DNA from: an uncultured Nitrospiraceae bacterium
Lineage (GTDB): Bacteria > Nitrospirota > Thermodesulfovibrionia > Thermodesulfovibrionales > SM23-35
Assembly: GCA_963727775.1 (NCBI GenBank)
Contig: CAVSHB010000003.1
Span: 320,001-384,000, forward strand
Direction: 5' to 3'
DNA: 64,000 bases
The notes under the pieces were generated by a model. That model saw nothing but the letters and a program-made list of their open reading frames with translations, was not told the DNA's origin and searched no databases. The position numbers were made by a program, and so were the translations under genes. Each line of letters opens with the position of its first letter. Position 1 is the first letter of the stretch. Of this stretch, positions 25,424 to 45,643 are shown piece by piece.

Positions 25424-25460
25424 TAAGTTCGCTGTTAACCCGATTCATAAAATTTTCGTC

Positions 25461-25571
25461 TGCCGACAAATACAGTATTTGCGCTCATTCTCGGCCCGGT
25501 ACAAATCGGGCTTCCGAGGTAAATTCTTTCTTCGAAAGAATATAGCCGCTTAAATACTGCATCTGTCGGCA
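25461..25571 (-). repeat. Structured dispersed element, copy A (candidate ncRNA)
   Basis: Reverse complement contains GTATTT..GCGG..ATTCT..AGAATTTACCTCGGA..CGAGAATGAGCG..AAATAC inside a 20-bp closing stem. Confidence 0.85.
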
Positions 25572-25591
25572 ATCTTAATGAATAATGTAGG

Positions 25592-26374
25592 TTAATAATT
25601 AGTTTGGAGCGGCGACAAAACGGTTTGTTCTACTGTTTTACATATTTGAGAGGCTGTCTTTTCCCGGTACTCTTCGATAGTTACAGGATCATGTAAAAAC
25701 ACCCTGACGTGAATCTTTTTTTGAGAGCTGACCCTAATCGCATTTTCTTTAAAAGATTGAGGCTTGTTCCACGCAATTTCCCTTTCTTCTTTATAATGGA
25801 GGGTCACCGGCAATAAAGAAATATTCGGGTTGAGTTCGACTACCTTAAAAATACCTCTATTAAAAGATATCTTTTCCTGAATGCCGCTGGTCGTTCCCTG
25901 CGGGAAAACAGCAAGTATCCGTCCTGAACAACCGCCGGCAATAGCATTAATCACTCTGAGTCTTTCCCTTGAAGAACTGCGTTCAAAAAAAATAACGCCT
26001 GCCAGTCCTGCGATCTGTCCGATTATCGGATAATACCTTACTTCCGCTTTGCTTACGAACACAGAGCCGAATAAAGCCGATAGAACAAAAATATCGAGAA
26101 AGCTAACGTGGTTTGAAACTATTATAAGGTCCTTTCTTTGCCGGGGAATTCGTGAATCAGCTCCGTATTCAATCTTGACCCGAAAAACTGAGAGGCAGAT
26201 TTTTGAATAAAACTGCACAAGCTTCGGACCGACACCATATCGCCACCTGTAGAAGATGAACAATATCAGAAAATAAAATGGCGCTAGGATAAGGGTAATA
26301 ATCAGACACAAAGCCGTCTTCCAATAAAACATCCACAGACTGTTTTGTATATTTTCCTGCTCCGGCTCCGTCAC
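25592..26374 (-). CDS. 1-acyl-sn-glycerol-3-phosphate acyltransferase family (PlsC-like)
   Basis: SNHVSFLD, FVSKAE, FFER and FPQGT motifs. Confidence 0.88.
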   Translation of the reverse strand: MTEPEQENIQNSLWMFYWKTALCLIITLILAPFYFLILFIFYRWRYGVGPKLVQFYSKICLSVFRVKIEYGADSRIPRQRKDLIIVSNHVSFLDIFVLSALFGSVFVSKAEVRYYPIIGQIAGLAGVIFFERSSSRERLRVINAIAGGCSGRILAVFPQGTTSGIQEKISFNRGIFKVVELNPNISLLPVTLHYKEEREIAWNKPQSFKENAIRVSSQKKIHVRVFLHDPVTIEEYREKTASQICKTVEQTVLSPLQTNY

Positions 26375-26586
26375 GTTGACTATTTACCTTCCCATAATCA
26401 TCCCTCTCGGGCGATATTGATAGCTGCGAGTATGCAGTATTTTAATCCATTGAACGACCGATAATAAATCGCCTGCAAATATATCGCACGTCAGACTTAC
26501 GGTGTAAATAAGGAAGAAGGGGTATCCCGTACTTTGAGGATAAAGAATAATCAGGTATACTTTTATAAACTAACCATTTATAACTT

Positions 26587-27039
26587 ATGAGAGAATGTCA
26601 TTTTTCATCAAAGTTAAGCAGCAAATATTATAAAGCTCTTGAGAAATTGCTATTTTTTAACAAGAAACAAGCATTTCTTATTAGAGATATTGAAAAAAGT
26701 ATTGAAGAATATGGCGTCCCCAGGATAGTTGCTGATGGAGAAACTTTCCGTATTAAGACTGGTTCAATTAATGATGTCCAAAATTTATTTGCTTTTGATA
26801 GTGAAACTGAAGATGCTGACCTCATTGGATTTATACTATACTATCGTCCTACTTTAAATAAGATAATTATTCTACACATTGCAGTTGATGAAAACTATGC
26901 TTTTGATGGAAAATTCTCAGATCAGACATTAACAATACAGTTGATCAACAAGGTCAAGGAAATTGCTCTTAAAATCAGAGGTATTGAATTATTAAGCATT
27001 GCTTATGGAAAAGACTTTACTATTCCTATAAGAGAATAA
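26587..27039 (+). CDS. Hypothetical protein (possible GNAT-like fold)
   Basis: 150-aa AT-rich ORF; IGFILYY...ILHIAVDENY pattern. Confidence 0.55.
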   Translation: MRECHFSSKLSSKYYKALEKLLFFNKKQAFLIRDIEKSIEEYGVPRIVADGETFRIKTGSINDVQNLFAFDSETEDADLIGFILYYRPTLNKIIILHIAVDENYAFDGKFSDQTLTIQLINKVKEIALKIRGIELLSIAYGKDFTIPIRE

Positions 27040-27386
27040 AATAAATATTCCATATGTCTGTATTTATCAGATCTCATGTTTTCGTTTGAAATATTGCATT
27101 GAATGTTTCAATTTCAAATCACAACTTCTTCAGAAGAGGAAGGAAGTCGCCCGGCATTAATCGCTGAATATTTCCTCCTGAATTAAACGGGGCATATTTG
27201 AGGGCTGCACCTTATAAATTCGTCTTTATGTGAGTTTCAGATGTATAACTAAGTTTGCAATCCAGTCTCCCATCTTTGTCTCAGTTAGAACATATAAAAG
27301 CGAAACTATAATTATTGTTAAAATAGTCGATAGTAAAAGTAGAAATAATAATATGTTTGATCATATTTCCCATCTTTTTTGTAAGT

Positions 27387-27626
27387 TCAAGCCTCTTTTT
27401 TACAGTTTAGATTTAAGTTCTTTTTTTCAAAATAGTCTCTAATTTCCTCTTCAGTAAACTGGAAATGCTTTAATACTAAGTAGCTGTCCATCCCTTCCTT
27501 TTTTGAAGCCTCAAAAACAATCTCTATCATTTTTTCCACTGGTATATGGGTAGGACAATCTCGGTCAAGTTCAATAGAGATTTCTTTATTAAATTTATCT
27601 TTAAATGATTCCTTCAGATTTTTCAA
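27387..27626 (-). CDS. Small hypothetical protein
   Basis: 79-aa ORF, TTG start preceded by AGAGGTGG. Confidence 0.4.
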   Translation of the reverse strand: MKNLKESFKDKFNKEISIELDRDCPTHIPVEKMIEIVFEASKKEGMDSYLVLKHFQFTEEEIRDYFEKKNLNLNCKKEA

Positions 27627-28077
27627 GCAGCCACCTCTCTTACCAATTAAACACTACCTCCTCATTCTTGTTGTTCCGATAAAAAGTGATATTCTTCTAT
27701 TATCTTTTTAATCAATAAATGTCTCTCGCTTAAAGGGACCGCCAAATAGAAACGCGAATCCATCAAAATTGTTATCACTTCTTTTGTCTTATTTTTGTAA
27801 GTTAGCTTTTCCATATTTGTTCTTAGCAATATCCGAAGAACTCATATACTTATTATTGTCCTTTATGCATAAAAAAGATGTCGGTATCTGTCTGATTTTA
27901 TTATCGGTATTTATGTCATTCTTCTGTAAGTGCATGTCCTACATACGGTGCGCATAAAAGGGAATCCTGATAAGTATTTAGGTGGGTTGTTTCCTGGGCT
28001 GAATGTGGCGTACTTCCTCTTCTAAGGAAGTTATTGAGAGGGGTAGGTAAAAAAGAGAGAACCTATTCTAATTAAAT

Positions 28078-28108
28078 AGAAGTGCCTCCACTTATTAGAA
28101 GAGGCACC
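28078..28108 (-). terminator. Terminator after the HU gene
   Basis: GTGCCTC...GAGGCAC stem with T-rich tail on the minus strand. Confidence 0.6.
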
Positions 28109-28126
28109 TTATTAAATTACAATAAA

Positions 28127-28399
28127 TTATTTTACTGCGTCCTTTAAAGCCTTCCCCGCTGTAAATTTAGGTGCTTTCCGAGCAGCAATCTTAATTATTG
28201 CACCTGTTTGAGGATTACGCCCCTTCCGTGCCTTCCTCTTTGAAACCGAGAAAGTCCCGAAGCCCACAAGGGCTACCTTGTTCCCTTTCTTCAGCGTCTT
28301 GGCAACTGCATCAATAAATGATTTAAGAGCCTTTTCCGCTACTGCCTTTGACGCCCCTGAGTCGTTAGCCATTTTTTCTACAAGTTCTGCTTTTGTCAT
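28127..28399 (-). CDS. hup: DNA-binding protein HU
   Basis: [22 protein letters not shown] and [14 protein letters not shown]. Confidence 0.97.
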
Positions 28400-28571
28400 A
28401 GAGACCCTCCGTTAATATTTATTGTTAGAAAGTATACCATGCCTGCGTTGAAAAATAGCTATCAGAAACCGGTACAGCCTGCGGGCAATATTCCTTGCCG
28501 GTGCGGCAAATTGACTGAGGGCTCTGATCTGCCCTCATTAAAAACCACAAGAAATTAACAAGTTGCAAAAA

Positions 28572-28587
28572 TGGTATCTATTTTGCG
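28572..28587 (+). promoter_or_regulatory. Possible sigma54 promoter for the TIGR03118-like gene
   Basis: TGGTATCTATTTTGCG gives GG-N10-GC about 50 bp before the start codon. Confidence 0.35.
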
Positions 28588-28633
28588 AGGATGGGGTAAA
28601 ATAGAAAAAATCCAATATTAAAAGGAGGTATTT

Positions 28634-29731
28634 ATGATGAGTACATTTCAGAGTAATTGGTACAGGAACTTATGTGCTCTTACATTAGCTTTAACAATGG
28701 TTTTGTTATCGGGCTTATCGGTTTATGCCGCCGGCAACTCCTACCACCAAGATAATCTGGTATCTGATAAAACTGGAGTGGCAGATCATATCGATTTAAG
28801 TCTCGTCAACGCCTGGGGAATTGCCTTTCATCCTAACGGGGTTGCGTGGGTTGCCGACAATGGCACGGGCAAGGCAACAGCCTATGATGGCTTGGGAAAC
28901 AAGGTGACCGAAATAACTGTCCCGCCGCCGGCCGGGAGTCCTCAGGGAACAACGTCAGCACCCACCGGCATAGTCTTCAGTTTTTCAGACTTCGCGGTAA
29001 CCAAGAATAATATTTCCGGTTTGAGCACCTTCATTATTGCGACGGAGGACGGAACTATATCGGGGTGGAATCAAGCCGTCGATGCTGCTAACGCTATACT
29101 CGCGGTAGACAATTCTTCGACAGGCGCGGTTTATAAGGGGATTGCCATAGCTGCCAACGGAACAGACCGCTTTCTCTATGCTACCGATTTCCACAACAAC
29201 AAGATTGATGTTTTTGATAAAGACTTTAAATCAGCTACACTGCCATGTTCATTCAGCGATCCGAAAATACCGGCCGGCTTTGCGCCCTTCGGTATCCACA
29301 ATGTCAGAGGCAACCTGTATGTTACTTATGCTAAACAAAATGCAGTAAAACATGATGACGTTGCGGGCAGAGGCCTAGGGTTCGTCGATGTTTATAATGC
29401 AAACGGCTGCCTCATCCAGCGCGTTATTAGGCGTGGGCAGCTCAATGCACCATGGGGGGTTGCAGTGGCTCCCGCAGATTTCGGCAAATTCAGCAATACG
29501 TTGCTGATCGGTAACTTTGGGGATGGCGGTATCAATGCATTTGACATCGGATCGGGTAATTTCCGGGGTACGCTGAGGAGGCCGAGCAACGGGCAACCTC
29601 TTGTGATAGACGGACTATGGGGAATAGCCTTCGGCAACGGTGTCAACAATCAACCGATTAACTCACTGTTTTTTACGGCTGGCCCCAATGGCGAAAGCGA
29701 TGGGCTCTTTGGAACGGTAGAGGCTGAATAA
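28634..29731 (+). CDS. TIGR03118-family exported protein
   Basis: Signal peptide; NLVSD, LVNAWGI, WVADNGTG, GFAPFGI, LNAPWG, GNFGDG, IDGLWG and FFTAGP; no PEP-CTERM tail. Confidence 0.88.
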   Translation: MMSTFQSNWYRNLCALTLALTMVLLSGLSVYAAGNSYHQDNLVSDKTGVADHIDLSLVNAWGIAFHPNGVAWVADNGTGKATAYDGLGNKVTEITVPPPAGSPQGTTSAPTGIVFSFSDFAVTKNNISGLSTFIIATEDGTISGWNQAVDAANAILAVDNSSTGAVYKGIAIAANGTDRFLYATDFHNNKIDVFDKDFKSATLPCSFSDPKIPAGFAPFGIHNVRGNLYVTYAKQNAVKHDDVAGRGLGFVDVYNANGCLIQRVIRRGQLNAPWGVAVAPADFGKFSNTLLIGNFGDGGINAFDIGSGNFRGTLRRPSNGQPLVIDGLWGIAFGNGVNNQPINSLFFTAGPNGESDGLFGTVEAE

Positions 29732-29737
29732 TAGGCC

Positions 29738-29770
29738 AAAAGGGCAGTGTCGAAAAACCACTGCCCTTTT
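29738..29770. terminator. Bidirectional rho-independent terminator
   Basis: AAAAGGGCAGTG...CACTGCCCTTTT between convergent genes. Confidence 0.85.
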
Positions 29771-29826
29771 CTTTTTTCCACCGTTCTGTCGAGCACTTGT
29801 GCAACAAATAATCTGAATTAGAGGCT

Positions 29827-30987
29827 TTACGGAAAAGTTGTTTTGACTCTCCTCCCTCTCATTTTTTTCTTTAATTTTGCAATTGCCAATTCAACCGCGA
29901 CTTTCCGTGGATTACAATTGCATTTCAGACTATCTTTCAAAATCATTCTCACATTGTGCGTAATTTTTCTTCTCACGAGATCAAACATCATTTGAGGGTT
30001 GTAACCTATGTATTCCGCGTAAGAAGAGAGTACGCCGCCGGCATTTACCACGATATCAGGCACAACGAGGATTCCTCTCCTAAAAAGTTCTTCTTCTATT
30101 TCTTCCCGCATCGGTATATTCGCTCCTTCAACAATGATCCCGGCCTTTATTGAGTTTTTATTCCCATCATTTATAACGTCCGTTACTGAAGCGGGTATCA
30201 GGATATCAACGGGCAAACCAAAAATGTCATCATGCTTCAATTTTTCCCCACCGGAATAGGAAGTTACAAACTTGCCTTCTTCCCTTAATACGGTCAGCTT
30301 TCCCTCGTCTAATCCTTTTTCGTGATAAACTGTGCCTTTGATATCGGACACGGCAACGATGTGAGCGCCGAGTTGTCTCAGATATTTAAAAACAAAGCTT
30401 CCCACGTTGCCGAATCCTTCTATCGCCACTTTTGCTTTTTTGATATCCACTCCCGATATCTCGGCTGCAGCTTTTACCGCATGGGCAACACCGAGACCCG
30501 TGCTTCCGAACTCATGAGGTATGCCGCACTTCTTCTCTGAACGCCTGAAGCTTTTCATACACAGATCAGCCGGCTTACCCGTCGCGCTCTGCCAATTTCC
30601 CGCAGCTTCTGCAAACCATTTCATCTCTTTCTCTCCGGTGTTGACATCAGGGCCTGCAACATATTTTAGAGGAGTAAACATCTTGATCGCCCTCGCAAAA
30701 CTCTGGATCAATTCCTTCTTATCTTTTCCGCTCCCGGGATCGTACCTTATGCCTGATTTTGCCCCGCCAAAGGGAATGTCCACCAGGACATTCTTCCACG
30801 TCATTGCCCTTGCAAGGCGGAAAACTTCCTCTTCCGTAATATCCGGTGTCATTCTGATTCCACCTTTGCCGGGGCCTGATACAGTATTATCGATAATCAG
30901 AATTCCCTCCATCCCGACTATAGAATCATAGACCCTCAGCACATATTCCGGGCCCCAATTATCGGCCATCAAGAAATTATGAATCAT
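29827..30987 (-). CDS. Glu/Leu/Phe/Val dehydrogenase
   Basis: GPGKGGIR, MTWK, PFGGAK, GPDVNT, GFGNVG, EGAN and PDIVVNAGGV. Confidence 0.93.
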   Translation of the reverse strand: MIHNFLMADNWGPEYVLRVYDSIVGMEGILIIDNTVSGPGKGGIRMTPDITEEEVFRLARAMTWKNVLVDIPFGGAKSGIRYDPGSGKDKKELIQSFARAIKMFTPLKYVAGPDVNTGEKEMKWFAEAAGNWQSATGKPADLCMKSFRRSEKKCGIPHEFGSTGLGVAHAVKAAAEISGVDIKKAKVAIEGFGNVGSFVFKYLRQLGAHIVAVSDIKGTVYHEKGLDEGKLTVLREEGKFVTSYSGGEKLKHDDIFGLPVDILIPASVTDVINDGNKNSIKAGIIVEGANIPMREEIEEELFRRGILVVPDIVVNAGGVLSSYAEYIGYNPQMMFDLVRRKITHNVRMILKDSLKCNCNPRKVAVELAIAKLKKKMRGRRVKTTFP

Positions 30988-31703
30988 GAGATGCCCCTTT
31001 GTTTTATTAACTGCATCTTTGCATCGAGTATCATTGCACCCCGAGGATAGAGCGCCACCGGATTCAGATCTATCTCGGCTATCAGGCCGCTGGCCATCAA
31101 TTCTGAAACCAGAACGATAATTCGCAATAGGACATCAAGATCCAGCGCCGGCCTGCCCCTGTAACCCTCAAAAAGCTTAAACGCCTTGAAACGTCTTACG
31201 AAACTCAGGGCTTCTTCCTTCGTTAAAGGGGCGAGCGCAAAAAGAACGTCCCTAAAGAATTCGACGAAAAGGCCGCCCAGCCCCAGCATCACAACAGGTC
31301 CGAATTGCTCATCAAGCATACCCCCAACGATCAGTTCAAGTCCCGAAGGGGCCATCTCCTCTATGTAAACTCCCTCTGCGTTCTCAAACCGGAGCAGTTC
31401 AATAATTGCATCCTTGAGTTCATGCTTGCTACGGAGGCCGACCTTCACTCCTCCTATGTCACTTTTTGATACTATTTTTGCTGAGGATACCTTAGCGACA
31501 AGCGGGTAAATAATATCCGGCAGATCAGGCATTCCTGCCGCCTGGTCCCTCGGCACAATTATTCCTTTGGGAATAGGAAGGCCAAGTTCTTTCAGCAAAG
31601 CTTTCACCTTGTATTCGACGAGGAATTCTTCCCCCTTATTCTTTCCAAGGAATTCTTTAAGTGCTTCAAAGGCGGCACCTTTCTCTATCACGCCGGGCAT
31701 CAT
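30984..31703 (-). CDS. Acyl-CoA synthetase (ADP-forming) beta subunit, ATP-grasp
   Basis: YPLVAKV, KSDIGGV, ELIVG..DEQFGPVVMLGLGG and EIDLNP. Confidence 0.9.
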   Translation of the reverse strand: MMPGVIEKGAAFEALKEFLGKNKGEEFLVEYKVKALLKELGLPIPKGIIVPRDQAAGMPDLPDIIYPLVAKVSSAKIVSKSDIGGVKVGLRSKHELKDAIIELLRFENAEGVYIEEMAPSGLELIVGGMLDEQFGPVVMLGLGGLFVEFFRDVLFALAPLTKEEALSFVRRFKAFKLFEGYRGRPALDLDVLLRIIVLVSELMASGLIAEIDLNPVALYPRGAMILDAKMQLIKQRGIS

Positions 31704-31753
31704 AACCCCACCCTTCCTCCCCTTATCTTAAGGGGAGGGGAGGAGGGGTTATG
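31701..31753. repeat. REP-like intergenic palindrome
   Basis: CATAACCCC..CCTCCCCTTA-TCT-TAAGGGGAGG..GGGGTTATG. Confidence 0.65.
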
Positions 31754-31823
31754 TCTTCCGTCACGCGCACCAGAATTAAACCCTGTCGATTTACATGATT
31801 TGTCAACATGTTTGCCTCCTTCC

Positions 31824-33170
31824 TCACACGACATTTGGATTGAGCAACCTTCTTAATCCCCTCGCCGCACACTCCGGCGAAGAGAAAGCAGGTATTTTTG
31901 CCTTCTCAACAATGCCGATCAGTTTCCCTGATTCGCTGCTGCACGACGTATGAAATACCATCGGCTTGTCGGTCTTCTCTTTGAAACTCCTCAGGAGTTT
32001 GCCCACTCTTGCCGTGATCCCGACAACGCCTGTCAGGGCTATGATAAGAAAGCCGTCGTAATCATCCTTCAACTCCTCGAGCGCGGTGAGATAATCCTCG
32101 TCTTTCACCTGTGCCGTGAGATCAAGAGGATTGTTCACGCCGTAGAAGTAGGGAAAAGCCTGCTTGAGCCTTACCTTCTTTTGCTCGGGAAGCTGCGGTA
32201 TCTCCAGCCCCTGCCTGAGACACTCGTCAGCTGCGAGGACACCTGAACCGCCTCCGTTCGTCACGATCAGGACGCGATTGCCGCTGACAGGTTTTTGATA
32301 AGAAAGCGCCTTCACCGTATCGATAAGATCGTCGAAGTCACGGGCTTCTTTGATCCCGTACTGTTCAAGCATGGACCTGAAAACTTCATACCTTCCCGCG
32401 AGTCTGCCGGTATGGGAATATGCTGCGATTCGGCCTCCGGAACGTTTTCCCGCTTTAAGAATAACGAGGTGTTTCTTCTCTGAGAGTTGTTTCGCCTTCT
32501 TGAGAAATTCTCTGCCGTTGCCCACTGACTCGATATAAGAGATGACGACGTCCGTCTTCCTATCGCTCATATAGTATTCGTAAAGGTCCGTCTCATCGAT
32601 ATCAATGGCATTCCCATATGTGACAGCGCTGGAGACTCCCATATTGGAGTCCCGCATGGTCCCGAATAGACAATGCATGATAGCCCCGCTTTGGGACACA
32701 ATCGCCACATTGCCTTTTTTAGGTCTTGCCACTCTGTCGGGGGAAAGAAAGAATGTATCAAAGCTCCTGTAAGGGTTGAAGATACCCATGCAGTTCGGAC
32801 CGAGCATTCTGAGACCGAGCTTTGTCCCCAGATGTCTGATCTCCTCTTGCAGTTCTCCCTCTCCGATCTCGGCAAAGCCCGAGCTCATAATCACTACACC
32901 CTTTGCCCTGCCTTCGTGTTCCTTAAGGAGATCGACTATTTCCGGAGCAGGCCTCAGAATCAACGAGAGGTCGACAAACTCCGGCACTTCTTTAATGGAC
33001 GGATACGTCTTTAATCCCATTAAGTTGTTGTATTTGGGATTTACGGGATAGACCTTCCCCTTGAATCTGAGCAGGTTTTTGAGGACTATTCCCCCCAGCT
33101 TCTCTTCGGCATGGGAAGCCCCTATCAAAGCCACCGTTTTCGGATTGAAAAGAAAGTTCAGATGGCTCAT
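31824..33170 (-). CDS. Acyl-CoA synthetase (ADP-forming) alpha subunit, CoA-binding
   Basis: VALIGAS, YPVNP, GPNCMG, SQSGA, SHTG (phospho-His), TNGGG and NPLDLT. Confidence 0.92.
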   Translation of the reverse strand: MSHLNFLFNPKTVALIGASHAEEKLGGIVLKNLLRFKGKVYPVNPKYNNLMGLKTYPSIKEVPEFVDLSLILRPAPEIVDLLKEHEGRAKGVVIMSSGFAEIGEGELQEEIRHLGTKLGLRMLGPNCMGIFNPYRSFDTFFLSPDRVARPKKGNVAIVSQSGAIMHCLFGTMRDSNMGVSSAVTYGNAIDIDETDLYEYYMSDRKTDVVISYIESVGNGREFLKKAKQLSEKKHLVILKAGKRSGGRIAAYSHTGRLAGRYEVFRSMLEQYGIKEARDFDDLIDTVKALSYQKPVSGNRVLIVTNGGGSGVLAADECLRQGLEIPQLPEQKKVRLKQAFPYFYGVNNPLDLTAQVKDEDYLTALEELKDDYDGFLIIALTGVVGITARVGKLLRSFKEKTDKPMVFHTSCSSESGKLIGIVEKAKIPAFSSPECAARGLRRLLNPNVV

Positions 33171-33200
33171 GTGCGGTAATCCTTCGCCGGAGCGTCGCCG

Positions 33201-33314
33201 ATGCGGCGGGTATAGTATTTTCGCGGATTTAAATTCTGTGCAGATTCATCGGAACAGAATTTACCTCGGAGGGCGATAGCCCGAGAATGAGCGACAATAC
33301 TTTGTCTGTCGCGT
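33201..33314 (+). repeat. Structured dispersed element, copy B (candidate ncRNA)
   Basis: Same conserved core as the other copies; closing stem with several G-U pairs; antisense to the surrounding operon. Confidence 0.85.
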
Positions 33315-33330
33315 TTCACTGAAGCGTTAC

Positions 33331-34512: not shown

Positions 34513-34528
34513 ATTTTTACTCCTTTAT

Positions 34529-35488: not shown

Positions 35489-35489
35489 A

Positions 35490-36545: not shown

Positions 36546-36666
36546 AGGTCCTCCCCAAAATATGTATTATTACGGATACCTCCAAATTTTCCCGCCGCTT
36601 TTAGATCTTGATTAAACAATAATATGTTTATACGCCTTCGTCAATTCCTTATGCTAAAATTCAATT

Positions 36667-37008
36667 ATGCGTGAGGAAAAAACGAGACTTGTTTATTCGA
36701 CTGATACTGCAATTCCGCGCAAAAAGAATACCGCAGAGGAAGCACCTCAAGAAACAAATCAACCTTCCCGGCAGAAGGTCTATGTCCGTCTTGACAGGAA
36801 AGGCAGGGGCGGAAAGACCGTTACAGTCATCGAAGGTCTCCAGATGCAGCGGAGGGAAATAGAGGAACTGCTCAGGGAACTGAAGGCGAAGCTCGGCACG
36901 GGTGGTACAATTAAGTATCCCTCTCTCGAAATTCAGGGTGACCATCGGGACATGGTAATGTCAGCATTGAAGGGGATGGGCTTCGCGCCAAAGCGCTCAG
37001 GCGGCTGA
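36667..37008 (+). CDS. yciH: SUI1/YciH translation initiation factor family
   Basis: LVYSTD, RKGRGGKTVT, LGTGGT and EIQGDHR. Confidence 0.92.
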   Translation: MREEKTRLVYSTDTAIPRKKNTAEEAPQETNQPSRQKVYVRLDRKGRGGKTVTVIEGLQMQRREIEELLRELKAKLGTGGTIKYPSLEIQGDHRDMVMSALKGMGFAPKRSGG

Positions 37009-37423
37009 GGTCAATTACATGCTATTTGTTTTTCAACATTAGGGCTCTGAAATGAAATTTCCACTGCTCCCCTGAAATGCTCGTCCTATATGCAAATATG
37101 TTATGCTCAAACATGAATTGTAAAGCATTAAAGCATAAGATCAATAATGTTAGAAGACCTTCCGCAGTTGAATGATGATGGACTATTGATCCCTGAAGTT
37201 GGATCTTGGGCAGAGCGTAAATATCGGATACTTTGGAACTATGCAAAAATGTTTACAACAGGCACGAAAAATAAATGGCATGAACGAATATACATTGATT
37301 TATATGCTGGCGCTGGTTTTGCGAGAATTAGAGAGAGTTCGATTATAGTTCCTGCATCACCACTGCTTGCACTTGATATCCCAGATAAATTTGATAAATA
37401 TATTTTTTGTGAGCAAGAGGAAG

Positions 37424-37996
37424 TGAAGAACCCTGCGGCAGAGACCGCAGGGCGTCAGAAGTCAAACAACCTCAACTGCCCAACATCCTTCTCTCTGCCT
37501 TGGTTCTTTATGTATTTCTCAATCACTCCTTTATTCCCTTTACCGCTGATCGTTGCTATGTAGTACCCATCTGTCCAGAACTCACCACCCCAAAGTTCTT
37601 TTTTTACCTCGGGGGCCTCTTCATATACTCTTTTCCCACTTATACTCTTTATTATCTTGATCACCTCCCCCCCAGAATACTTCGATAAATATCGACACAG
37701 AATATGCACATGGTTTCGATCAAATCCAACTGTATTGATCTCTATCGCATACCTTTCTTTCAATCCTTTCAGCGCTCCAACTATAGCCCCTTCTACTTCT
37801 TTACTCAAAAGTGACTTGCGGTATTTCACCGTTATTTGAATGTGATAGTAACACTCCGATATATTGTGATACCATCGCCATATATCGTCGTCAAGAGTTA
37901 CCATCGTCTCTTTATTCTATCAGTCTACAGGTCTTTCCCTCCATTTACTCTACATACATCGGATCCTGCGGCAGAGACCGCAGGGTGTATCAATTA
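37424..37996 (-). mobile_element. IS200/IS605-family element (tnpA only)
   Basis: Directly repeated hairpins CCTGCGGCAGAGACCGCAGG at both ends; right end TTCA, left end after TTAA; no TSD. Confidence 0.9.
37455..37904 (-). CDS. tnpA: IS200-family Y1 transposase
   Basis: YHIQITVKYRK, HVH, LWGGEFWTDGYY and KYIKNQ. Confidence 0.95.
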   Translation of the reverse strand: MVTLDDDIWRWYHNISECYYHIQITVKYRKSLLSKEVEGAIVGALKGLKERYAIEINTVGFDRNHVHILCRYLSKYSGGEVIKIIKSISGKRVYEEAPEVKKELWGGEFWTDGYYIATISGKGNKGVIEKYIKNQGREKDVGQLRLFDF

Positions 37997-38596
37997 TTAA
38001 ACTTGAAGCCTTAAAGCAAAGAATAAGATTGAAGCACTCTGATGTAAATACAATATATATCCACGGCGATGTAACAGAAAACATTGATAGAATTATCTCA
38101 GCGGTGTCAAAGCACAGTCCGTCGCATAAGGTTCTTTCATTCTGCTTTATAGATCCGTATAAAATAGATAATTTTAATTTTCAGATAATACAAAAGCTCT
38201 CATGTAAATATGTTGATTTTTTGATTCTTATTCCATCTTATATGGACGCGCATAGAAATGTGGTCAAGTATTCTGAAGATACGCACGTTTCTGTAGAGGA
38301 TTTTACGGGCGTTAAAAACTGGAAAGAGCTATGGGGCATTGAAAAACAAAGAGGAACGGACTTTGGAGTATTTTTACCTGAGTTGTTTTGCAAATCCATG
38401 GAAAACTTAGAGTATATTTCTACTGGAGTAAGCAATACAATTTTAATACGCTCAGACAAGAAAAATCTTCCTCTTTACCATCTTGCTTTTTTCAGCAGAC
38501 ATTCCTTAGGCATAAAGTACTGGAAAGAGGCTCTTAAATATAGTTCAGACCAAAGAGAGCTTTTTTAATGACTTTTATTTGATTATAATAAAACAA

Positions 38597-39331
38597 ATGG
38601 CACAGACATCAAAGATAGAATGGACTGAGACAACATGGAACCCTGTCACTGGTTGTACGAAAATCAGCGAAGGCTGCCTAAATTGCTATGCTGAGAGAAT
38701 GGCAAATCGTCTATATGCAATGGATAATCCACGGTATAAAAATGGCTTCCGTCTTACTTTGCATCCTGATCTTATTGAAATACCGCTAAAGTGGAAAAAA
38801 ACGCGGCTTATTTTCGTAAACTCCATGAGTGATCTATTTCATAAAGATGTGCCCTTTTCTTTTATTGATCAGATATTCCGCACAATGGAAAAAGCTCACT
38901 GGCATACCTTTCAGATTGTTACCAAGCGGTCTGAAAGACTTCTTGAATTATCTTCTAAACTCAACTGGCCATCAAATATTTGGATGGGGGTAACTGTTGA
39001 ATCGGATAGGTATTTAAAAAGAATAAATGACCTCAGCAAGGTGCCATGTATGGTCAAGTTTCTTTCTATGGAGCCGCTCTTGTCAGATTTTCCAGCACTT
39101 CCTATTGCTGGAATGGACTGGGTTATTGTAGGCGGGGAATCCGGACCCAGAAGCAGGCCGATGCAGAAGAGCTGGGTTAGAAATATACGAGAACACTGTC
39201 TATCGAGAAATGTTCCTTTCTTTTTCAAACAATGGGGTGGAGTTAATAAGAAGAAAAATGGTAGAGTGCTGGATGGCAGAATGTGGGGTGAAATGCCTGA
39301 ACCAGTACACCAAAGTAATGCTACCCTTTAA
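38597..39331 (+). CDS. DUF5131 / phage Gp37-Gp68-like protein (three-Cys motif)
   Basis: [45 protein letters not shown] and FFFKQWGG. Confidence 0.92.
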
Positions 39332-39777
39332 TGTTTTCTGTTGTTAATTAGTAATTCACTCACGCCTCTATCCTTTAACTTTGAGGGAGATGTTACCTTC
39401 TCAATAACTTCTTGAAACATGCATCTGAGCTATGACCCTTTGGTCTGTCAGTTGCGTCCTAAAATCAACAAGAAATTACTAGTGCTCGGAATCTTCTTCG
39501 CATTCTCCCTCCTTTAGGTAGCTTCGTATCTACTGATAGCTGCGCATTTGTTATGGTTGGGAAAACTTTTCATGGATTGGAGATTACCCTCAAAATCCCT
39601 CCTTTTCATTGAAAGCCATTATAGCCATAACAAGCGTATTTAGTAAAACATAAGGGCTTTGCAAACTTTCGAATAAGCGTCAGTCCGCTGCGGCAGTTGC
39701 GGACTAACGCATATTCGTTACCCGCACCCGACCTCGAAGATAATGCCTTCCGAACTATTCGATTGATTCCCGTGGCC

Positions 39778-40476
39778 TCATCGCTCCCAATCACGGTAAT
39801 AAAATTTAACCAGCTTGTCGGGCCGGACACCTAAATGATAAAGGCCCCTTAACATCCAGTTCCTCAATGTGCAGTAAAGGACCCCTTCTTTTTCCCACCT
39901 CCTCGGGGATGTCTTCACCTTCTGCGGCATGATGCAGATCTTGTGTCCGGCTCTTTTCATGCGCATCATAAACTCCAGATCTTCCATCAATGGAATTTCT
40001 TTAAATCCGTTCAGCTCATCAAATAGCTTCTTTTTGACGAATATGGCCTGATCACCGTAAGGAATTCCGGTAAAATGAGAACGGATGTTGGCCATTTTTT
40101 CTATAAGCCTGAAAACAATCCTTTCGGATTTTATTTCTAAATCAAAAGCCCCGCCCGCGCATTGATTTTTGTCCACTGCGGCAAGGATTGCGCTGTAGGC
40201 ATCTGCCGGAAGTTCGGTGTCTGTGTGCAGAAATAAAAGAATTTCGCCTTTGGCCGCGGAGGCCCCTTTATTCATCTGCATACCGCGGCCCTTTGAAGAT
40301 AGAACTTTTATTACATCATTTTTTTGTATTGCATTTATCGTTGCTCCGCCCGGTCCACCATCAACGACTATCACTTCAAAATCAAACCCGGAACCTGTCA
40401 GATAAACATTTTCAACGGTTTGGTTGATTATTGATGGTTCATTTAATACGGGGATTATAATAGAAAAAGAACACAT
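39778..40476 (-). CDS. GT2 glycosyltransferase, TIGR04283-like
   Basis: SIIIPVLNE, VVDGG, GRGMQMNKGA, LFLHTD, PYGDQAIF and TSPRRW. Confidence 0.88.
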   Translation of the reverse strand: MCSFSIIIPVLNEPSIINQTVENVYLTGSGFDFEVIVVDGGPGGATINAIQKNDVIKVLSSKGRGMQMNKGASAAKGEILLFLHTDTELPADAYSAILAAVDKNQCAGGAFDLEIKSERIVFRLIEKMANIRSHFTGIPYGDQAIFVKKKLFDELNGFKEIPLMEDLEFMMRMKRAGHKICIMPQKVKTSPRRWEKEGVLYCTLRNWMLRGLYHLGVRPDKLVKFYYRDWER

Positions 40477-40493
40477 TTTTTTATCAAATAAAC

Positions 40494-41189
40494 CTACGCA
40501 AAAAGCCTTTTCATATTGCCCGATATAAACCGCATAGTTCTTGAATCCGCAAATTCGGTATGTTTATTTCTCTCGGCCAATGCCCTTAAATCATCAAGAC
40601 TGTCCACATCCCTCCATTTCTGAAGGATATGTACTTCATGATTATATTTATTGAATATCTCCATTGTCCTCCCGAATACCTCGTCCGTACTCCATGGTAT
40701 CCCATCAAATATTTCCGGAAGGAAAGTGTTATGGTTAAAACCTATCAGATAATACCCTCCGTCGAAGGCCGGGCCGATCACCGCATGGTCATTACATAAC
40801 TCGAGCGCCTTATCCAATAACGTATTGGGCAAATCAGGCACATCACTGCCGATTATCAATATGTTTGAAAATCCCTCTGTAAAAGACTCTGTAAAGGCGT
40901 TCTTCATTCTTTCACCTACATCCCGACCCTTCTGGGGCATATATTGATAGTCCTTCCCGAGCCAGTCCGAGAACTTTCCTTTTGAATCCGGCGGGGTAAA
41001 ACAGATTTCAAAAGAATATCCGCCCTTTTTAAGCGTATCCACAAGGTCGAGCACAAAATTTTTGTAGAGAGCAAGAACGATAGTTTCATCCAAATTTATT
41101 GAAAGCCGGGATTTTACTTTTCCCTTTTCAGGGAGTTTGACAAACAGGAGCACACATCCATCAGGGAGCGTCTTTGTCTTTCGAATCAC
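40494..41189 (-). CDS. TIGR04282/DUF2064-like transferase
   Basis: FVKLPEKGKVKSRL, GERM, IIGSDVP, GPAFDGGYYLIG, WST and DVD. Confidence 0.88.
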   Translation of the reverse strand: MIRKTKTLPDGCVLLFVKLPEKGKVKSRLSINLDETIVLALYKNFVLDLVDTLKKGGYSFEICFTPPDSKGKFSDWLGKDYQYMPQKGRDVGERMKNAFTESFTEGFSNILIIGSDVPDLPNTLLDKALELCNDHAVIGPAFDGGYYLIGFNHNTFLPEIFDGIPWSTDEVFGRTMEIFNKYNHEVHILQKWRDVDSLDDLRALAERNKHTEFADSRTMRFISGNMKRLFA

Positions 41190-41227
41190 TATGATATAGT
41201 ATCATAATATAGCTGCATAATCAGCCC

Positions 41228-41349
41228 TAAATAATGGCGGAGACGGTATTTGAGCGGTTTTAAATTCTGTGAAGATTTATCGGAACAGAATTTACCTCGG
41301 AGGGCGACAGCCCGAGAATGAGCGAAAATACCGTGTCCGCCATTATTTA
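41228..41349 (+). repeat. Structured dispersed element, copy C (candidate ncRNA)
   Basis: Same conserved core; closing stem TAAATAATGGCGGA.ACGGTATTT / AAATACCGT.TCCGCCATTATTTA. Confidence 0.85.
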
Positions 41350-41357
41350 CAAATACG

Positions 41358-41783
41358 TCATGAATAATAAGGGGCGGTATTCAATAACTTTGTCAACACA
41401 GGAATCAGTTCGGTACCCATTTTCCTCTTTGGTATATAGGCATTGGCCCCCGCTACAGCAGCGCCGGCCCGGTATGTGGAATCTTCATATATGCTCAGCA
41501 TTACTACCTGTGCCTTCGGAACAGCATCCCTAATGAGCCGGGTTGCGTCGATGCCGCTCATTCCGGGTAACATAATATCCATCAGGACGACGTCGGGCTG
41601 CATTTCCAGGACTTTGGCCAGGGCCTCTTCCGCGCTTTTTGACTGTAGAACACTACTGTCCCGGAAAACGGCGCCAAGCCACTTTTGTAATGATTCCCGC
41701 AGTGCATCATGATCTTCAATAATAAGGATAACGGGCTTCGTAATTTTGCAAATATCCCTGACATCGCCCATGATAAGATTCAA
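41358..41783 (-). CDS. Single-domain response regulator
   Basis: IIEDH, PDVVLMDIMLPGMSG, MLS and YIPK; start uncertain. Confidence 0.88.
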   Translation of the reverse strand: MNLIMGDVRDICKITKPVILIIEDHDALRESLQKWLGAVFRDSSVLQSKSAEEALAKVLEMQPDVVLMDIMLPGMSGIDATRLIRDAVPKAQVVMLSIYEDSTYRAGAAVAGANAYIPKRKMGTELIPVLTKLLNTAPYYS

Positions 41784-41875
41784 CCTCCCGATATAAACCT
41801 TAACTGATAGTTTAATTCCATTTTATCCAAATGTCTGTCAGGGAACTTTGACTTTTCTTGTAAGGTTTGTTTGAT

Positions 41876-42529
41876 TTATTTTATTGTTGTCAGACCGTGC
41901 TGGAGGGCAAACTTGACCAAACCGGGAATATCTTTGATGTTGAGTTTTTCCATGAAGCGGCACCTGTATGTCTCAACAGTCTTGACGGACAGGGAAAGGA
42001 CGTCGGCAATCTCGGAGCTGGATTTCCCCTCAACCACAAGCTGCAATATCTCCCTTTCCCTTGAAGTGAGCCGTTCCAGGGGACTCTGGCCCGCCGCGGG
42101 CTCACGCTCACATATGTAATCGTCGATTATAGTTTCAGTAATATATTGCGATAAATATCGACGCCCTGCATATACGGTACGGACAGCGGTGATTACTTCA
42201 GCGCCGGCTGATTCTTTTAACAAATAGCCCTTAGCCCCTGCCTTAAACGCATGGAAGATATGCTCGTTGGACGCATACATCGAGAGAATAATGGTGCGTG
42301 TAGAATGGCAGTGGTCCCGGATCTGCCGGGTTGCATCAATGCCGTTGAGTTCCGGCATTGCGATATCCATAATTACTACATCGGGGCACAGGCGTTTTAC
42401 CTCATGCACAGCCTTGCGTCCGTCCGCTGCTTCGCCGACAACGGAAATGTCCTTCTGGGTCTCTAACAGTAATCGCAGTCCTTCCCGCACAACCGCATGG
42501 TCATCGGCAAGAAAAACTCTTATAGCCAT
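41876..42529 (-). CDS. NarL/LuxR-family response regulator
   Basis: ADDH, MDIAMP, YLLK and LTSREREIL..SVKTVETY. Confidence 0.95.
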   Translation of the reverse strand: MAIRVFLADDHAVVREGLRLLLETQKDISVVGEAADGRKAVHEVKRLCPDVVIMDIAMPELNGIDATRQIRDHCHSTRTIILSMYASNEHIFHAFKAGAKGYLLKESAGAEVITAVRTVYAGRRYLSQYITETIIDDYICEREPAAGQSPLERLTSREREILQLVVEGKSSSEIADVLSLSVKTVETYRCRFMEKLNIKDIPGLVKFALQHGLTTIK

Positions 42530-42533
42530 AGGT

Positions 42534-43953
42534 TCATCTCTTTATCTCAATTTCGAGCCTCGTCCCTTTTCCCGGCTCGGACTTAATAATCAATTTCCCA
42601 TCTATTGCCTTCGTCCTCTCCTGTATATTGAGCAGCCCCCATCCGGAGCGCTCACTTAATCTGTTAACAGCCGCCGGGTCAAAGCCCACTCCATTATCAG
42701 TGACGGTCAAATGCGCTTTACCGTTATTTTCATCCAGCCTTATGGTAACCTGTGTAGCACCGGCATGTTTAACTACATTGGTCAAAACCTCCTGAACGAT
42801 GCGGAATAAAGTTGTCTCTACCTCTGACGGCAGACGAGGCACCAATTCTTCACCTTGTATATTGATTTGCAGCCCCATTCGCCTCGAGAACTGTGCTCCA
42901 TACCATCGTAATACCGCAAGCAGCCCATAATCATCCAGAACAGAAGGCCGCAAGTCAGCCATTAAGTCCCGGACCCGCCTCATGGTTTCTTCCAATATGC
43001 TCAACATGTCGGTCAAAAGCGCCTCTATCTCGCCTGTCAGGCAGCCGGATAATTTATTGCGCAGCATATTCAGATTAATGCCGAGCGCAGTCAGGTTCTG
43101 GCCGATCTGATCATGCAGTTCCCTGGAAAATCTTTGACGGTCGGTCTCTTCCGCCTTTGAGAGTCGCTTGGTAAGCGCACTCGAGCTGATCTCTTGACCT
43201 TATGAGCGCCTCTTCCGCGTTCTTAAGGTCAGTGATGTCGCGCCCTACCGACTGAAATTCCACTATCTGTCCTTTTTCGTCGAATATGGCCCTGTTGGTC
43301 CACTGCTGCCACCGGATATCACCATTGGGCATAATTGCACGATGCTCCATTAGGGCAACAGGTTGCTCACGGGTCAAAACAGGAATGCGTTTCTTCAGCT
43401 CCTCTGCAGGCATAAAAGGTATAGAGGAATGCCCTATAAGTTCCTCGCAGGATTTCCCGACATAACGACAACAAACTTCATTAACATAGGTAATTGTTCC
43501 GTCGGGCATCCAGCGGCAGATCAGTTCAGTCTGATCTTCAACTATGGCGCGGTATTTTTCTTCTGATTTCCGCAGATGCCTTATTTCTATCGCACGTGCC
43601 ACCACAGGCCGTAGTATTTTCCAGTCCAGCGGTTTTGTTATATAATCAAATGCGCCGATCTTCATCGCCTCAACCGCGGTCTGGACTGTACCGTGCCCGG
43701 TTATGATAATGCATACCAGATGCCGGTCTTTCTTTAAGGCGGTCCTAAAAAGAGTGATGCCGTCTATTTCGGGCATCATAAGATCGGTAATGAGCAGGTC
43801 AAAATCCTGCTTGCTTAAGGCCTCTAATGCGTCTTTGGCCGACATAAATCGTATGACCTCATAGCCCGATTCCGTCAAGAAATCAGATAAAGGGGTTACG
43901 ACGTCAATTTCGTCATCAACAATCATTATTTTTTCTGAACGAATGTTATTCAT
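42534..43953 (-). pseudogene. Hybrid REC-PAS-HisKA_3-HATPase kinase with a frameshift near 43182
   Basis: After RDQL, a one-base shift gives SALTKRLSKAEETDRQRFSRELHDQIGQNLT, continuous with ORF 42534-43067. Confidence 0.85.
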
Positions 43954-43958
43954 CTTTC

Positions 43959-43990
43959 AGGCAACAGGCTATAGGCTATAGGCTATAGGC
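43959..43990. repeat. Heptamer tandem repeat (AGGCTAT)x3 plus degenerate flanking units
   Basis: AGGCAAC AGGCTAT AGGCTAT AGGCTAT AGGC immediately upstream of the kinase start. Confidence 0.85.
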
Positions 43991-44056
43991 GGGATGAAGG
44001 TCGTAACAGCAGATTTTTCGAAACGGATGGAGGAATTATTATACAAATCTTCTCCG

Positions 44057-45457
44057 TTAACCGGATGCTGATAAGGCTGTTTTTATTCCCCTGACAAGGA
44101 CCTCAACATCGCTGTCTCCCACTGTTCTTGCATCTATTATTAAGGAGTCTTCTTTTATTCTCGTGATAATAGGCGGACTGCCCTTTCTTAATCTCTCCTC
44201 AAGTTCATTAACGGATATCTTTGTAGTCCCTATAGATACCGCATAGGTAGGCAGATCTTCTTCCGGCAACGCCCCGCCGCCGGCCCTGGATGAATCCCCC
44301 ATGACATGAACGTCGAGACTCTTTATCTCTTTTCTCAGCCTTCGCGCTATTCTGTTCGCCTGTTTTTTTATCTCTTCAGGCCTCTGCAACAACATCCGGA
44401 GCGTCGGAATGTTTTTAACGGCCTTTTCTTCGTCAATGTATTCCATGAGTGTCGCTTCAAAACCGGCGAGTGTCAGCTTGTCTATTCTCATGGCTCTTGT
44501 CATCGGGTTTTTCTGGATCCTTTCGATGTATTTTCTTTTCCCTACGATAACCCCTCCCTGCGGCCCTCCAAGGAGTTTGTCGCCGCTGAAGGTTGTCAGA
44601 TCAACCTCTGAATTCACGATATCTTTTACTACCGGTTCATTGTGAATGCCGAACGGCTTCAAATCAATAAGACATCCGCTGCCGAGATCGAACATCACCG
44701 GCAGGTGATGTTTTTGTCCGAGTGTAACGAGGTCCTGCGTGTATACTTCGTCGGTAAATCCGACAATCTTATAATTGGATTTATGGATCTTCAGAATAAG
44801 CGAGGTGTTTTCATTTATCGCTTTTTCATAGTCGTACAGATGTGTCTTATTCGTTGTGCCTACTTCGCGGAGTACGGCGCCGCTTGCCGCCATGACATCG
44901 GGCAATCTGAAAGATCCTCCTATTTCAACAAGTTCACCCCTTGAAACAATGACCTCTTTGCCCTTTGATAATGTGTTAAGGCAGAGCAGCACTGCTGCAG
45001 CATTGTTGTTCACAACGAGCGCATCTTCAGCATTCGTTACTTCCCTTAGAATCCTCTTGATATGGGTATATCTTTTCCCGCGTTTCCCTTTGTCAATGTC
45101 GTATTCAAGGTTGGAATAACTTTCTGAAACCCGTCTGATATTTTCGAGCGCCCGTTCAGAGAGGATAGACCGCCCAAGGTTTGTATGGATTACGACGCCT
45201 GTCGCATTGATCAAAGGCTTCAGGCTGTAAGAAGAAAGTCTTTGAATTATACGCTCGATATCGGCCATCATAATATCTTCTGAGAGATCGGTGGAAAGAC
45301 CTTCGAGGATCTCTCTCCTCCTGCGGTCGATCCCATCTCTTATGGCCTGTATGACATACCTTCTTTGATAGGTATTGAGCCATTCGGCGCCTCGCCGGCT
45401 CTTCAGTAATTCATCGACTGAGGGAAGATTAGAGAGCAGTTTCTGTTTTTCGTCCAT
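44057..45457 (-). CDS. selA: L-seryl-tRNA(Sec) selenium transferase
   Basis: LPSVD, INATGVVIHTNLGR, VNNNAAA, SRGELVEIGGSFR and FSGDKLLGGPQ. Confidence 0.97.
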   Translation of the reverse strand: MDEKQKLLSNLPSVDELLKSRRGAEWLNTYQRRYVIQAIRDGIDRRRREILEGLSTDLSEDIMMADIERIIQRLSSYSLKPLINATGVVIHTNLGRSILSERALENIRRVSESYSNLEYDIDKGKRGKRYTHIKRILREVTNAEDALVVNNNAAAVLLCLNTLSKGKEVIVSRGELVEIGGSFRLPDVMAASGAVLREVGTTNKTHLYDYEKAINENTSLILKIHKSNYKIVGFTDEVYTQDLVTLGQKHHLPVMFDLGSGCLIDLKPFGIHNEPVVKDIVNSEVDLTTFSGDKLLGGPQGGVIVGKRKYIERIQKNPMTRAMRIDKLTLAGFEATLMEYIDEEKAVKNIPTLRMLLQRPEEIKKQANRIARRLRKEIKSLDVHVMGDSSRAGGGALPEEDLPTYAVSIGTTKISVNELEERLRKGSPPIITRIKEDSLIIDARTVGDSDVEVLVRGIKTALSASG

Positions 45458-45528
45458 CTATTTTTCTACCACAGAATGAAAATAAGGTCAATGCATTTTC
45501 TCCTACCCCACTTAATTCACACAATTGT

Positions 45529-45643
45529 GATTACCGGCAGATATAGTATTTGCGCGGTTTTAAATTCTTTCTTTGAAAGAATTTACCTCGGAGTCCGCCA
45601 CGGCGGACGAGAATGAGCGCAAGTACTATATCTGTCGGTAATC
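45529..45643 (+). repeat. Structured dispersed element, copy D (candidate ncRNA)
   Basis: 27-bp closing stem with two G-U pairs; same conserved core; lies between divergent selA and purF. Confidence 0.87.

What the first reader, a model, noticed from the sequence alone, without database searches (positions are those of the whole stretch)
25461..45643. Four-copy ~115-nt intergenic element with a conserved three-way junction: candidate new structured RNA or ssDNA element
Seen: copies at 25461-25571 (-), 33201-33314 (+), 41228-41349 (+) and 45529-45643 (+). All share GTATTT-NN-GCGG-N(2-5)-ATTCT[variable]AGAATTTACCTCGGA[variable hairpin]CGAGAATGAGCG-N-AA-N-TAC. The outer 20-27 bp closing stems differ in sequence but stay complementary, and the loops of both inner hairpins vary in length and sequence. 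The junction bases (GG, UUAC/C, purine bulge after CUC, AAUGA) are fixed. In copies A, B and D most closing-stem mismatches are G-U pairs on the same strand of the motif. Inference: selection acts on a single-stranded fold in one orientation. Orientation relative to neighbouring genes is mixed and the neighbours are functionally unrelated, which argues against a pathway riboswitch and for an autonomous RNA, a ribozyme-like element or a non-autonomous mobile element. I do not recognise it as a known Rfam family.
Basis: partly seen in the sequence, partly recalled or inferred. Interest (0 to 1): 0.85.

Follow-up and report, generated by a model that had tools for sequence, protein, structure and literature searches.

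The report
Flippable Y-shaped repeat riding mini-transposons
The four look-alikes are copies of an uncatalogued Y-shaped repeat, found about 74 times in this genome and in several bacterial phyla, that likely spreads inside gene-less mini-transposons and likely works as a one-strand docking site for a protein that is still unknown.

Summary
Real, and larger than reported. The four copies belong to a family of about 74 in this genome; the same core occurs in at least seven phyla; no Rfam match. Only about 26 junction bases are near-fixed; all three stems vary but stay paired. Here 51 of 72 copies keep one or both ends of a resident IS1380, with 4-bp target duplications; other lineages use other ends. 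The core is 3-7% diverged where the ends are 25-39%. The core flips between its arms, so closing-stem covariation may be partly mechanical. The fold favours one strand (G-T over A-C, 97:35), which is antisense to operons (31:5), not mixed. Loops carry CsrA-type sites mainly in csrA hosts (15/19 vs 5/50) and DNA mini-hairpin loops in others, so RNA versus ssDNA is open. It resembles TwoAYGGAY but is not a member. The scan found this family before, in this genome and others. No expression data.

The parts
25439..25591 (-). Copy A with its wrapper: IS1380-type mini-transposon (153 bp)
   Evidence: Ends match the ends of the genome's autonomous IS1380; TTAA on both sides (sequence)
25576..25591 (-). 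Copy A left terminal inverted repeat
   Evidence: 1 mismatch to the end set
25439..25450 (+). Copy A right terminal inverted repeat, shortened by about 4 bases
   Evidence: Sequence
25592..25595 (.). Target duplication TTAA; holds the stop codon of the acyltransferase ORF 25592-26374
   Evidence: Sequence and ORF list
25435..25438 (.). Second copy of the target duplication TTAA
   Evidence: Sequence
25461..25571 (-). Copy A: closing stem P1, hairpins P2 and P3; fixed core at 25482-25519; sense to both neighbours (rare class)
33201..33314 (+). Copy B: no recognisable transposon ends; fixed core at 33264-33293; antisense inside the pdh-acd gene run
41228..41349 (+). Copy C: fixed core at 41295-41324; antisense to both neighbours
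41358..41373 (-). Decayed IS1380-type end right of copy C
   Evidence: 3 mismatches; background 2 of 400 spacers
45529..45643 (+). Copy D between divergent selA and purF: fixed core at 45586-45619
45507..45522 (+). IS1380-type end left of copy D; it is the kind normally found on the other side, so the core is probably flipped (scored unclear by the spacer test)
   Evidence: 2 mismatches

Best explanation
The repeat is a gene-less cargo module with a fixed Y-shaped core that here likely spreads between IS1380 transposon ends, flips between its own arms, and likely acts as a folded single strand (RNA more likely than DNA) that docks an unknown host protein. Shown: ends shared with a resident IS1380, target duplications, different ends in other lineages, inversion of the core at one shared site in two species, one-strand bias, fixed junction across phyla. 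Inferred: the IS1380 transposase moves the unit in trans; template switching between the 20-bp arms inverts the core and keeps the arms complementary; exchange between copies shuffles the two hairpins; the motif-strand RNA is polar when it lies in sense inside an operon, so such copies are purged; in hosts with csrA the hairpin tips add CsrA sites, but this genome has no csrA, so CsrA is an add-on and not the partner of the fixed junction.
For: Spread: 21 of 72 copies have both ends, 30 one, 21 none (background 2 of 400 spacers); left and right 4-mers are identical in 11 of 21 against 3.8 in permutations (0 of 20000 reached 11); four full 1.65-kb IS1380 copies with the same ends. An empty site in a sister species shows a ~215-bp insertion with a ~9-bp duplication and different ends; a third kind of end in G170. 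Core kept: in 39 copies picked by their arms, not by the core, ends differ from consensus by 39% and 25%, junction segments by 3-7%. Flip: G030 and G009 have the core in opposite directions at the same site; 5 of 39 copies here are flipped inside their wrapper, 30 standard, 4 unclear. Strand: G-T vs A-C 97:35 in 74 dissimilar representatives; motif strand folds better in 161 (RNA) or 164 (DNA) of 188. Orientation: antisense 31, sense 5 here; 28:8 in other Nitrospirota loci. RNA: A(N)GGA loops in 15 of 19 csrA-positive and 5 of 50 csrA-negative genomes, one copy each; four further genomes with such loops all have csrA, one without such loops has none.
Against: No transcript data. This genome has no csrA and 1 of 70 copies has a GGA loop. 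The favoured strand is mostly not the mRNA strand, so most copies would need their own or antisense transcription, and I did not look for a promoter. c(GNA)g and GCGNNAGC loops typical of DNA mini-hairpins are on the motif strand (exact in 8 of 148 unique cores vs 0 on the other strand; no UUCG excess). The csrA link is confounded by kinship (most negatives are one family). This IS1380 was found in only 5 of 61 relatives while the core is in 36 of 61 (draft genomes lose IS copies); a second empty site shows no duplication; and six Planctomycetota copies I read show no ends by eye. Orientation bias was not seen in other phyla (5:6 in 16 scored loci, 8 skipped). Slow core divergence could also come from gene conversion, which favours the middle of a repeat.
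Confidence: 0.5

Rival explanations
1. The core works as folded single-stranded DNA, for example a primosome-assembly-like site or another docking site for a replication or repair protein; transposon ends only carry it.
For: GNA triloops 22 vs 3 on the motif strand among 193 unique hairpins of csrA-negative or untested hosts, against 16 of 642 background hairpins on either strand; all four c(GNA)g loops occur; such loops are far more stable in DNA than RNA and occur at ssDNA priming sites (PMC13037366, passages). The favoured strand is mostly not the mRNA. CsrA can bind GGA loops in ssDNA, 45-fold weaker (PMC5916893, passages). A relaxed two-block pattern hits ColE1 once, at 1311-1353, and 0 of 300 shuffles; that this stretch is the ColE1 pas/ssiA is my recall, the record does not label it.
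Against: The pattern was written after seeing both sequences; it misses phiX174 and hits 1 other place in this genome. The covariance model scores the phiX174 F-G spacer at E 0.34 (hairpin only) and the ColE1 stretch at E 2.6. No exact core in 2.9 million viral contigs, no plasmid or phage match by BLAST. No compensatory intermediates: 0 of 120 viral hits and 1 single mutant among 117 metagenome hits examined.
Confidence: 0.25
2. It is an ordinary selfish mini-transposon: arms stay paired by template switching and cores stay alike by gene conversion, with no function of the fold.
For: Ends, target duplications, flips and hairpin mosaics are all seen; template switching is known to homogenise arms and invert spacers (PMC8604942, PMC8794818, abstracts). 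In G170 many cores are decayed. Copy number runs from 0 to 62 among relatives.
Against: The same non-palindromic junction is unchanged in at least seven phyla and inside at least three unrelated wrappers; G-T bias and GGA or GNA loops follow the core's strand; loop type follows csrA.
Confidence: 0.12
3. The motif-strand RNA is a new self-cleaving ribozyme or a nuclease-processing signal; sense copies inside operons are lost because they cut the mRNA.
For: Fixed junction with freely variable stems; lack of sense copies inside operons only.
Against: No Rfam ribozyme match at any threshold tried; some sense copies persist (copy A; G009); loop signals point to protein binding.
Confidence: 0.09
4. 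It is a riboswitch or other cis-regulator of one pathway.
For: Strong conservation of junction bases.
Against: Neighbours are unrelated, the motif strand is usually antisense, up to about 130 pattern matches per genome.
Confidence: 0.02

Closest known systems
TwoAYGGAY structured element (Rfam RF01731; PMC2864571 table row; PMC4333381 passages; bioRxiv 10.64898/2026.09.22.753630 section 8)
   Same: Two hairpins on a long basal stem; A(N)GGA loops in csrA hosts; tens of copies per genome; inverted doublets (8 pairs among 72 copies here, 6 back-to-back); function and mobility unresolved.
   Different: RF01731 gives no hit in 22 carrier genomes; my model does not score 7 real RF01731 members; junction sequences differ; most copies here lack GGA loops; defined transposon ends and target duplications are present here.
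Prokaryotic MITEs, here with IS1380-family ends (NCBIfam NF033539)
   Same: Gene-less unit, terminal inverted repeats shared with a resident transposase gene, target duplications, empty site in a relative.
   Different: The interior, not the ends, is the conserved part; the same interior sits in unrelated wrappers and can invert inside them.
REP, BIME and REPIN repeats with RAYT; ERIC and Correia repeats (recalled, not read here)
   Same: Intergenic palindromic repeats, often just after stop codons, often in inverted pairs.
   Different: Three-way junction with a fixed core across phyla; no linked Y1 transposase (Y1 genes are in carriers and non-carriers alike).
Primosome assembly sites of phiX174 and ColE1 (PMC5778457, PMC3167613, passages; positions recalled)
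   Same: Strand-specific fold; short shared words such as AAGCGG and TGAGCG; GCGNAGC mini-hairpins.
   Different: Not significant by covariance model; element not found in phages or plasmids; chromosomal and multicopy.

Membership tests
TwoAYGGAY (RF01731) | Score above Rfam gathering threshold | tested here: not met
   0 of 22 carrier genomes (controls were silent there, but the same search found members in 2 of 121 other genomes); no hit on single loci
TwoAYGGAY (RF01731) | Two hairpins from one basal stem | tested here: met
TwoAYGGAY (RF01731) | AYGGAY-type loop on both hairpins | tested here: not met
   Not in this genome (1 of 70 copies has any GGA loop); met or nearly met in csrA-positive relatives
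TwoAYGGAY (RF01731) | Shared junction sequence | tested here: not met
   7 members lack the CGAGAATGAGCG block even with 3 mismatches and are not scored by model R1
IS1380-type MITE | Terminal inverted repeats shared with an autonomous element | tested here: met
   51 of 72 copies have at least one end within 3 mismatches; window copy B has none
IS1380-type MITE | Target-site duplication | tested here: met
   11 of 21 exact 4-bp matches vs 3.8 expected; copy A has TTAA on both sides
IS1380-type MITE | Intact transposase in the same genome | tested here: met
   Four full copies, 448 aa, above the NF033539 cut-off
IS1380-type MITE | Empty site for an IS1380-wrapped copy | not tested
   No same-genus relative of this genome is held; the empty sites found concern another wrapper and an unwrapped copy
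IS1380-type MITE | Mobilisation in trans | not testable with these tools
   Needs a transposition assay
REP/REPIN with RAYT | Linked Y1 tyrosine transposase flanked by the repeat | tested here: not met
   No recurring neighbour; 1 of 10 Y1 loci lies beside a copy, and there an IS200-type element has inserted into the copy's end
Primosome assembly site | Sequence-structure homology to phiX174 or ColE1 sites | tested here: inconclusive
   E 0.34 and 2.6; post hoc pattern hits ColE1 only
Primosome assembly site | PriA-dependent primosome loading | not testable with these tools
   Needs biochemistry
Known self-cleaving ribozymes | Match to an Rfam ribozyme model | tested here: not met
K-turn or k-junction RNA | L7Ae-family binding protein in the host | tested here: not met
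   PF01248 not found in this genome; controls rang in 7 of 14

The most novel reading that the evidence does not exclude
The fixed junction is a sequence-specific single-stranded DNA docking site, akin to plasmid and phage primosome assembly sites, that unrelated mini-transposons have captured and scattered through the chromosomes of many phyla; it flips between its arms, and selection keeps it on the template strand so that transcription does not expose it as an unscheduled replication-restart site.
Probability: 0.1. Interest if true: 0.9.

Novelty: new variant of a known kind. Interest (0 to 1): 0.62.

Why it matters
A non-coding core that is letter-for-letter conserved across at least seven phyla, yet rides different transposon ends and inverts in place, implies a widespread unidentified binding partner. 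It is a second, sequence-unrelated family beside TwoAYGGAY, whose link between mobility and regulation is called unresolved in the 2026 preprint; here the mobility route is visible (ends, duplications, empty site), and csrA-free hosts separate the loop function from the junction function. It also shows that stem covariation in such repeats can be mechanical, which matters for genome-scale RNA discovery.

Tried and rejected
Rfam at gathering and E-value thresholds: nothing. First viral scan: 2 hits; the one I read lies in coding sequence, and neither scores with the model. Exact core in viral contigs: 0. phiX174-like pattern in viral contigs: 18 loci, one identical to phiX174, the others not convincing by eye. 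Search for compensatory variants of the junction: 0 of 120 viral hits; 4 of 117 metagenome hits had a closing stem and only 1 was a real copy, a single mutant (3 loci dropped before the count). Linked gene: none among neighbours of about 100 loci; no copy beside 6 reverse-transcriptase loci or 9 IS1380 loci. Y1 transposases: in 52 of 61 relatives regardless of the element. Expression: no RNA holder listed; laying three same-study RNA runs gave no cover of the element; this is no evidence either way. Empty sites: of 5 sister-species comparisons 2 gave empty sites, 1 an inverted core, 2 no orthologous region; none among 20 relatives of the Planctomycetota carrier. Stop codons as targets: only 6 of 49 YTAR ends hold the stop of the gene running in, so this does not explain the positions. 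The replication strand could not be assessed: GC skew is weak. The accession of a plasmid with an annotated assembly site was not held. Literature: nine searches gave no description of this family; none searched the core sequence itself, subscription papers are missing, and supplements of the 2026 preprint (closed) and of PMC2864571 (not opened) could bear on novelty.
Full report
Observation. The four stretches are in the window as described, and none matches Rfam. The window lies in a 3.43-Mb genome in four contigs. A pattern allowing 1 and 2 mismatches finds 72 copies; a covariance model built from 48 diverse copies finds 74. The exact core is in 36 of 61 genomes (this one and 60 relatives), 0 to 62 times each, with no match to the reversed control. 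A scan of one genome per species returned 126 loci from 4 of 64 parts, about 2100 stretches in all. The named records are mostly Nitrospirota (Thermodesulfovibrionales), which is also my reading of this genome's 16S (from recall), and include Desulfobacterota, Planctomycetota, Latescibacterota, Gemmatimonadota, Patescibacteria and Pseudomonadota. I discount one Vicinamibacteria hit without stems and two hits (Elusimicrobiales, an archaeon) that are near-identical to Nitrospirota copies and may be mis-binned. In 22 such genomes a looser pattern gives 1 to about 130 matches each, some overlapping.

Anatomy. A closing stem P1 of about 20 bp leads to (G)AGCGG-NTT, hairpin P2 (12 to about 80 nt), CCTCGGAG, hairpin P3 (5 to about 45 nt), CGAGAATGAGCG and the other arm. 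On the 48-sequence alignment 92% of cells pair, 260 show change on both sides against 78 in shuffles and at most 78 in slid controls; the junction pairs never change on both sides and so say nothing about structure. P1, P2 and P3 types occur in mixed combinations within this genome (23 combinations in 70 copies), which points to exchange between copies.

How it spreads. Many copies are framed by 16-bp inverted repeats next to YTAR. The same ends bound four 1.65-kb elements that encode a 448-aa IS1380 transposase. Of 72 copies 21 have both ends, 30 one and 21 none; background is 2 of 400 spacers. Left and right 4-mers are identical in 11 of 21, against 3.8 in permutations. Copy A is a complete example with TTAA on both sides; C and D keep one end; B none. 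The wrapper is not the element: this transposase is seen in 5 of 61 genomes; in G031 the core sits in a ~215-bp insertion with a ~9-bp duplication and other ends, absent from the same site in G013 (the ends look like IS66, recalled); G170 has a third kind of end; and a ~140-bp insertion in G008, absent in G029, shows no duplication.

The core outlasts the ends and flips. In 39 copies chosen by their arms, the left and right ends differ from consensus by 39% and 25% (partly misalignment of decayed or flipped ends), the junction segments by 3-7%, one misoriented row included. Selection at the loci or gene conversion could give this. G030 and G009 carry the element at the same site with the core in opposite directions and the switch inside the arms; here 5 of 39 copies are flipped inside their wrapper, 30 standard, 4 unclear. 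Template switching is known to homogenise arms and invert spacers (PMC8604942 and PMC8794818, abstracts), so P1 covariation alone does not prove selection.

One strand matters. With scoring that treats both mismatch types alike, P1 holds G-T over A-C 75:19 here, 135:41 in other genomes and 97:35 in 74 dissimilar representatives (188 of 219 distinct copies had a parsed stem). That strand is antisense to both neighbours in 31 copies, sense in 5, between convergent genes in 17 and divergent in 19 (simple ORF calls). The departure from the genome's spacer types (p=4e-4) disappears when the sense class is left out (p=0.34). Other Nitrospirota loci give 28:8 (14 skipped); other phyla 5:6 (8 skipped). 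The simplest reading is that the motif strand inside an mRNA harms the downstream gene.

RNA or DNA. ANGGAX on a stem is the high-affinity site (PMC4005645, passages). This genome has neither csrA nor such loops. In such hosts the loops are often GNA triloops and GNNA loops closed by C-G, on the motif strand: 22 vs 3 among 193 unique hairpins, background 16 of 642; exact GCGNAGC or GCGNNAGC in 8 of 148 unique cores vs 0. These are much more stable in DNA than RNA (PMC13037366, passages). GNRA loops are also strand-biased (6:0) and UUCG is not enriched. CsrA binds GGA loops in ssDNA too, but 45-fold weaker (PMC5916893, passages). I put RNA ahead because a loop signal that follows an RNA-binding protein is hard to explain for chromosomal DNA, but the DNA case is real. 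No expression data could be had.

Primosome lead. From recall I compared the element with the phiX174 F-G spacer and the ColE1 stretch after the origin, fetched as records. Short words are shared, and a pattern written after the fact hits ColE1 once at 1311-1353, 0 of 300 shuffles, phiX174 not at all, and one other place in this genome. The model gives E 0.34 and 2.6, no exact core is in viral contigs, and no intermediates were found. It stays a low-probability lead. Papers seen: PMC5778457, PMC3167613, PMC4129139, PMC6668396 (passages); none gives the site's sequence.

Comparison. The closest known thing is TwoAYGGAY: same shape, multicopy, doublets, proposed CsrA sponge, mobility unexplained (bioRxiv 10.64898/2026.09.22.753630, abstract, passages and section 8; PMC4333381 passages; PMC2864571 table row). 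It is not a member: RF01731 finds nothing in 22 carriers, and 7 true members lack the junction and are not scored by my model. As a unit of spread it is a MITE by ends, duplication and resident transposase; what differs is the conserved, exchangeable, invertible cargo.

Verdict. A real, uncatalogued family, in none of my nine literature searches, but noted before by this scan in this genome and others. New here, as far as those notes show, are the inversion of the core at a shared site, the antisense bias with its lack of sense copies in operons, the DNA mini-hairpin loops and the primosome test. New variant of a known kind; interest 0.62.

Noticed in passing
window 22088-25010: Three tandem tyrosine recombinase genes (a recombinase-trio type element, label recalled) start about 430 bp after copy A.
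   Followed up: no
window 19592-21690: Integron-integrase-like recombinase followed by an IS91-family transposase.
   Followed up: no
window 8574-10103 and 14947-16332: Two IS1380-family transposases whose ends differ from the repeat's wrapper.
   Followed up: partly
window 37147-38568: A tcmP-like gene in two pieces with a Y1 (IS200-type) transposase at 37500-37862 between them.
   Followed up: no
window 44057-50164: selA and selB flank purF and copy D; a tRNA-Sec lies elsewhere on the same contig.
   Followed up: no
window 39778-41189: Pair of arsenosugar-type glycosyltransferase genes (TIGR04283, TIGR04282) next to copy C.
   Followed up: no
G000:C4:4089-4150: A copy that kept its left end and a collapsed closing stem but lost the whole core, as by slippage between the arms.
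   Followed up: no
G000:C1:672113-672676 and C3:133614-134177: An IS200-type element has inserted at the same point in the right end of two different copies.
   Followed up: partly
G000:C1:1115310-1116967 and 1358645-1360302: Two full IS1380 copies have unlike 4-bp flanks, which may mark recombination between IS copies.
   Followed up: no
G000:C1:37393-41528, 318274-318971, 477885-482029; C4:100-480: Seven reverse-transcriptase domain matches, in halves, several about 3.8 kb apart, as if interrupted.
   Followed up: partly
L485, L489-L499 (G191): A sub-family with three coordinated junction changes, the only structured variant of the core seen.
   Followed up: partly
L033, L059, L063, L083, L147: Hairpin P2 carries a second repeat of the CCCCCTT-loop-AAGGGGG type inserted at its tip in several Nitrospirota copies.
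   Followed up: no
L543:tail, after the element: A Saccharibacteria copy lies just before a tRNA-like sequence on the other strand (by eye).
   Followed up: no
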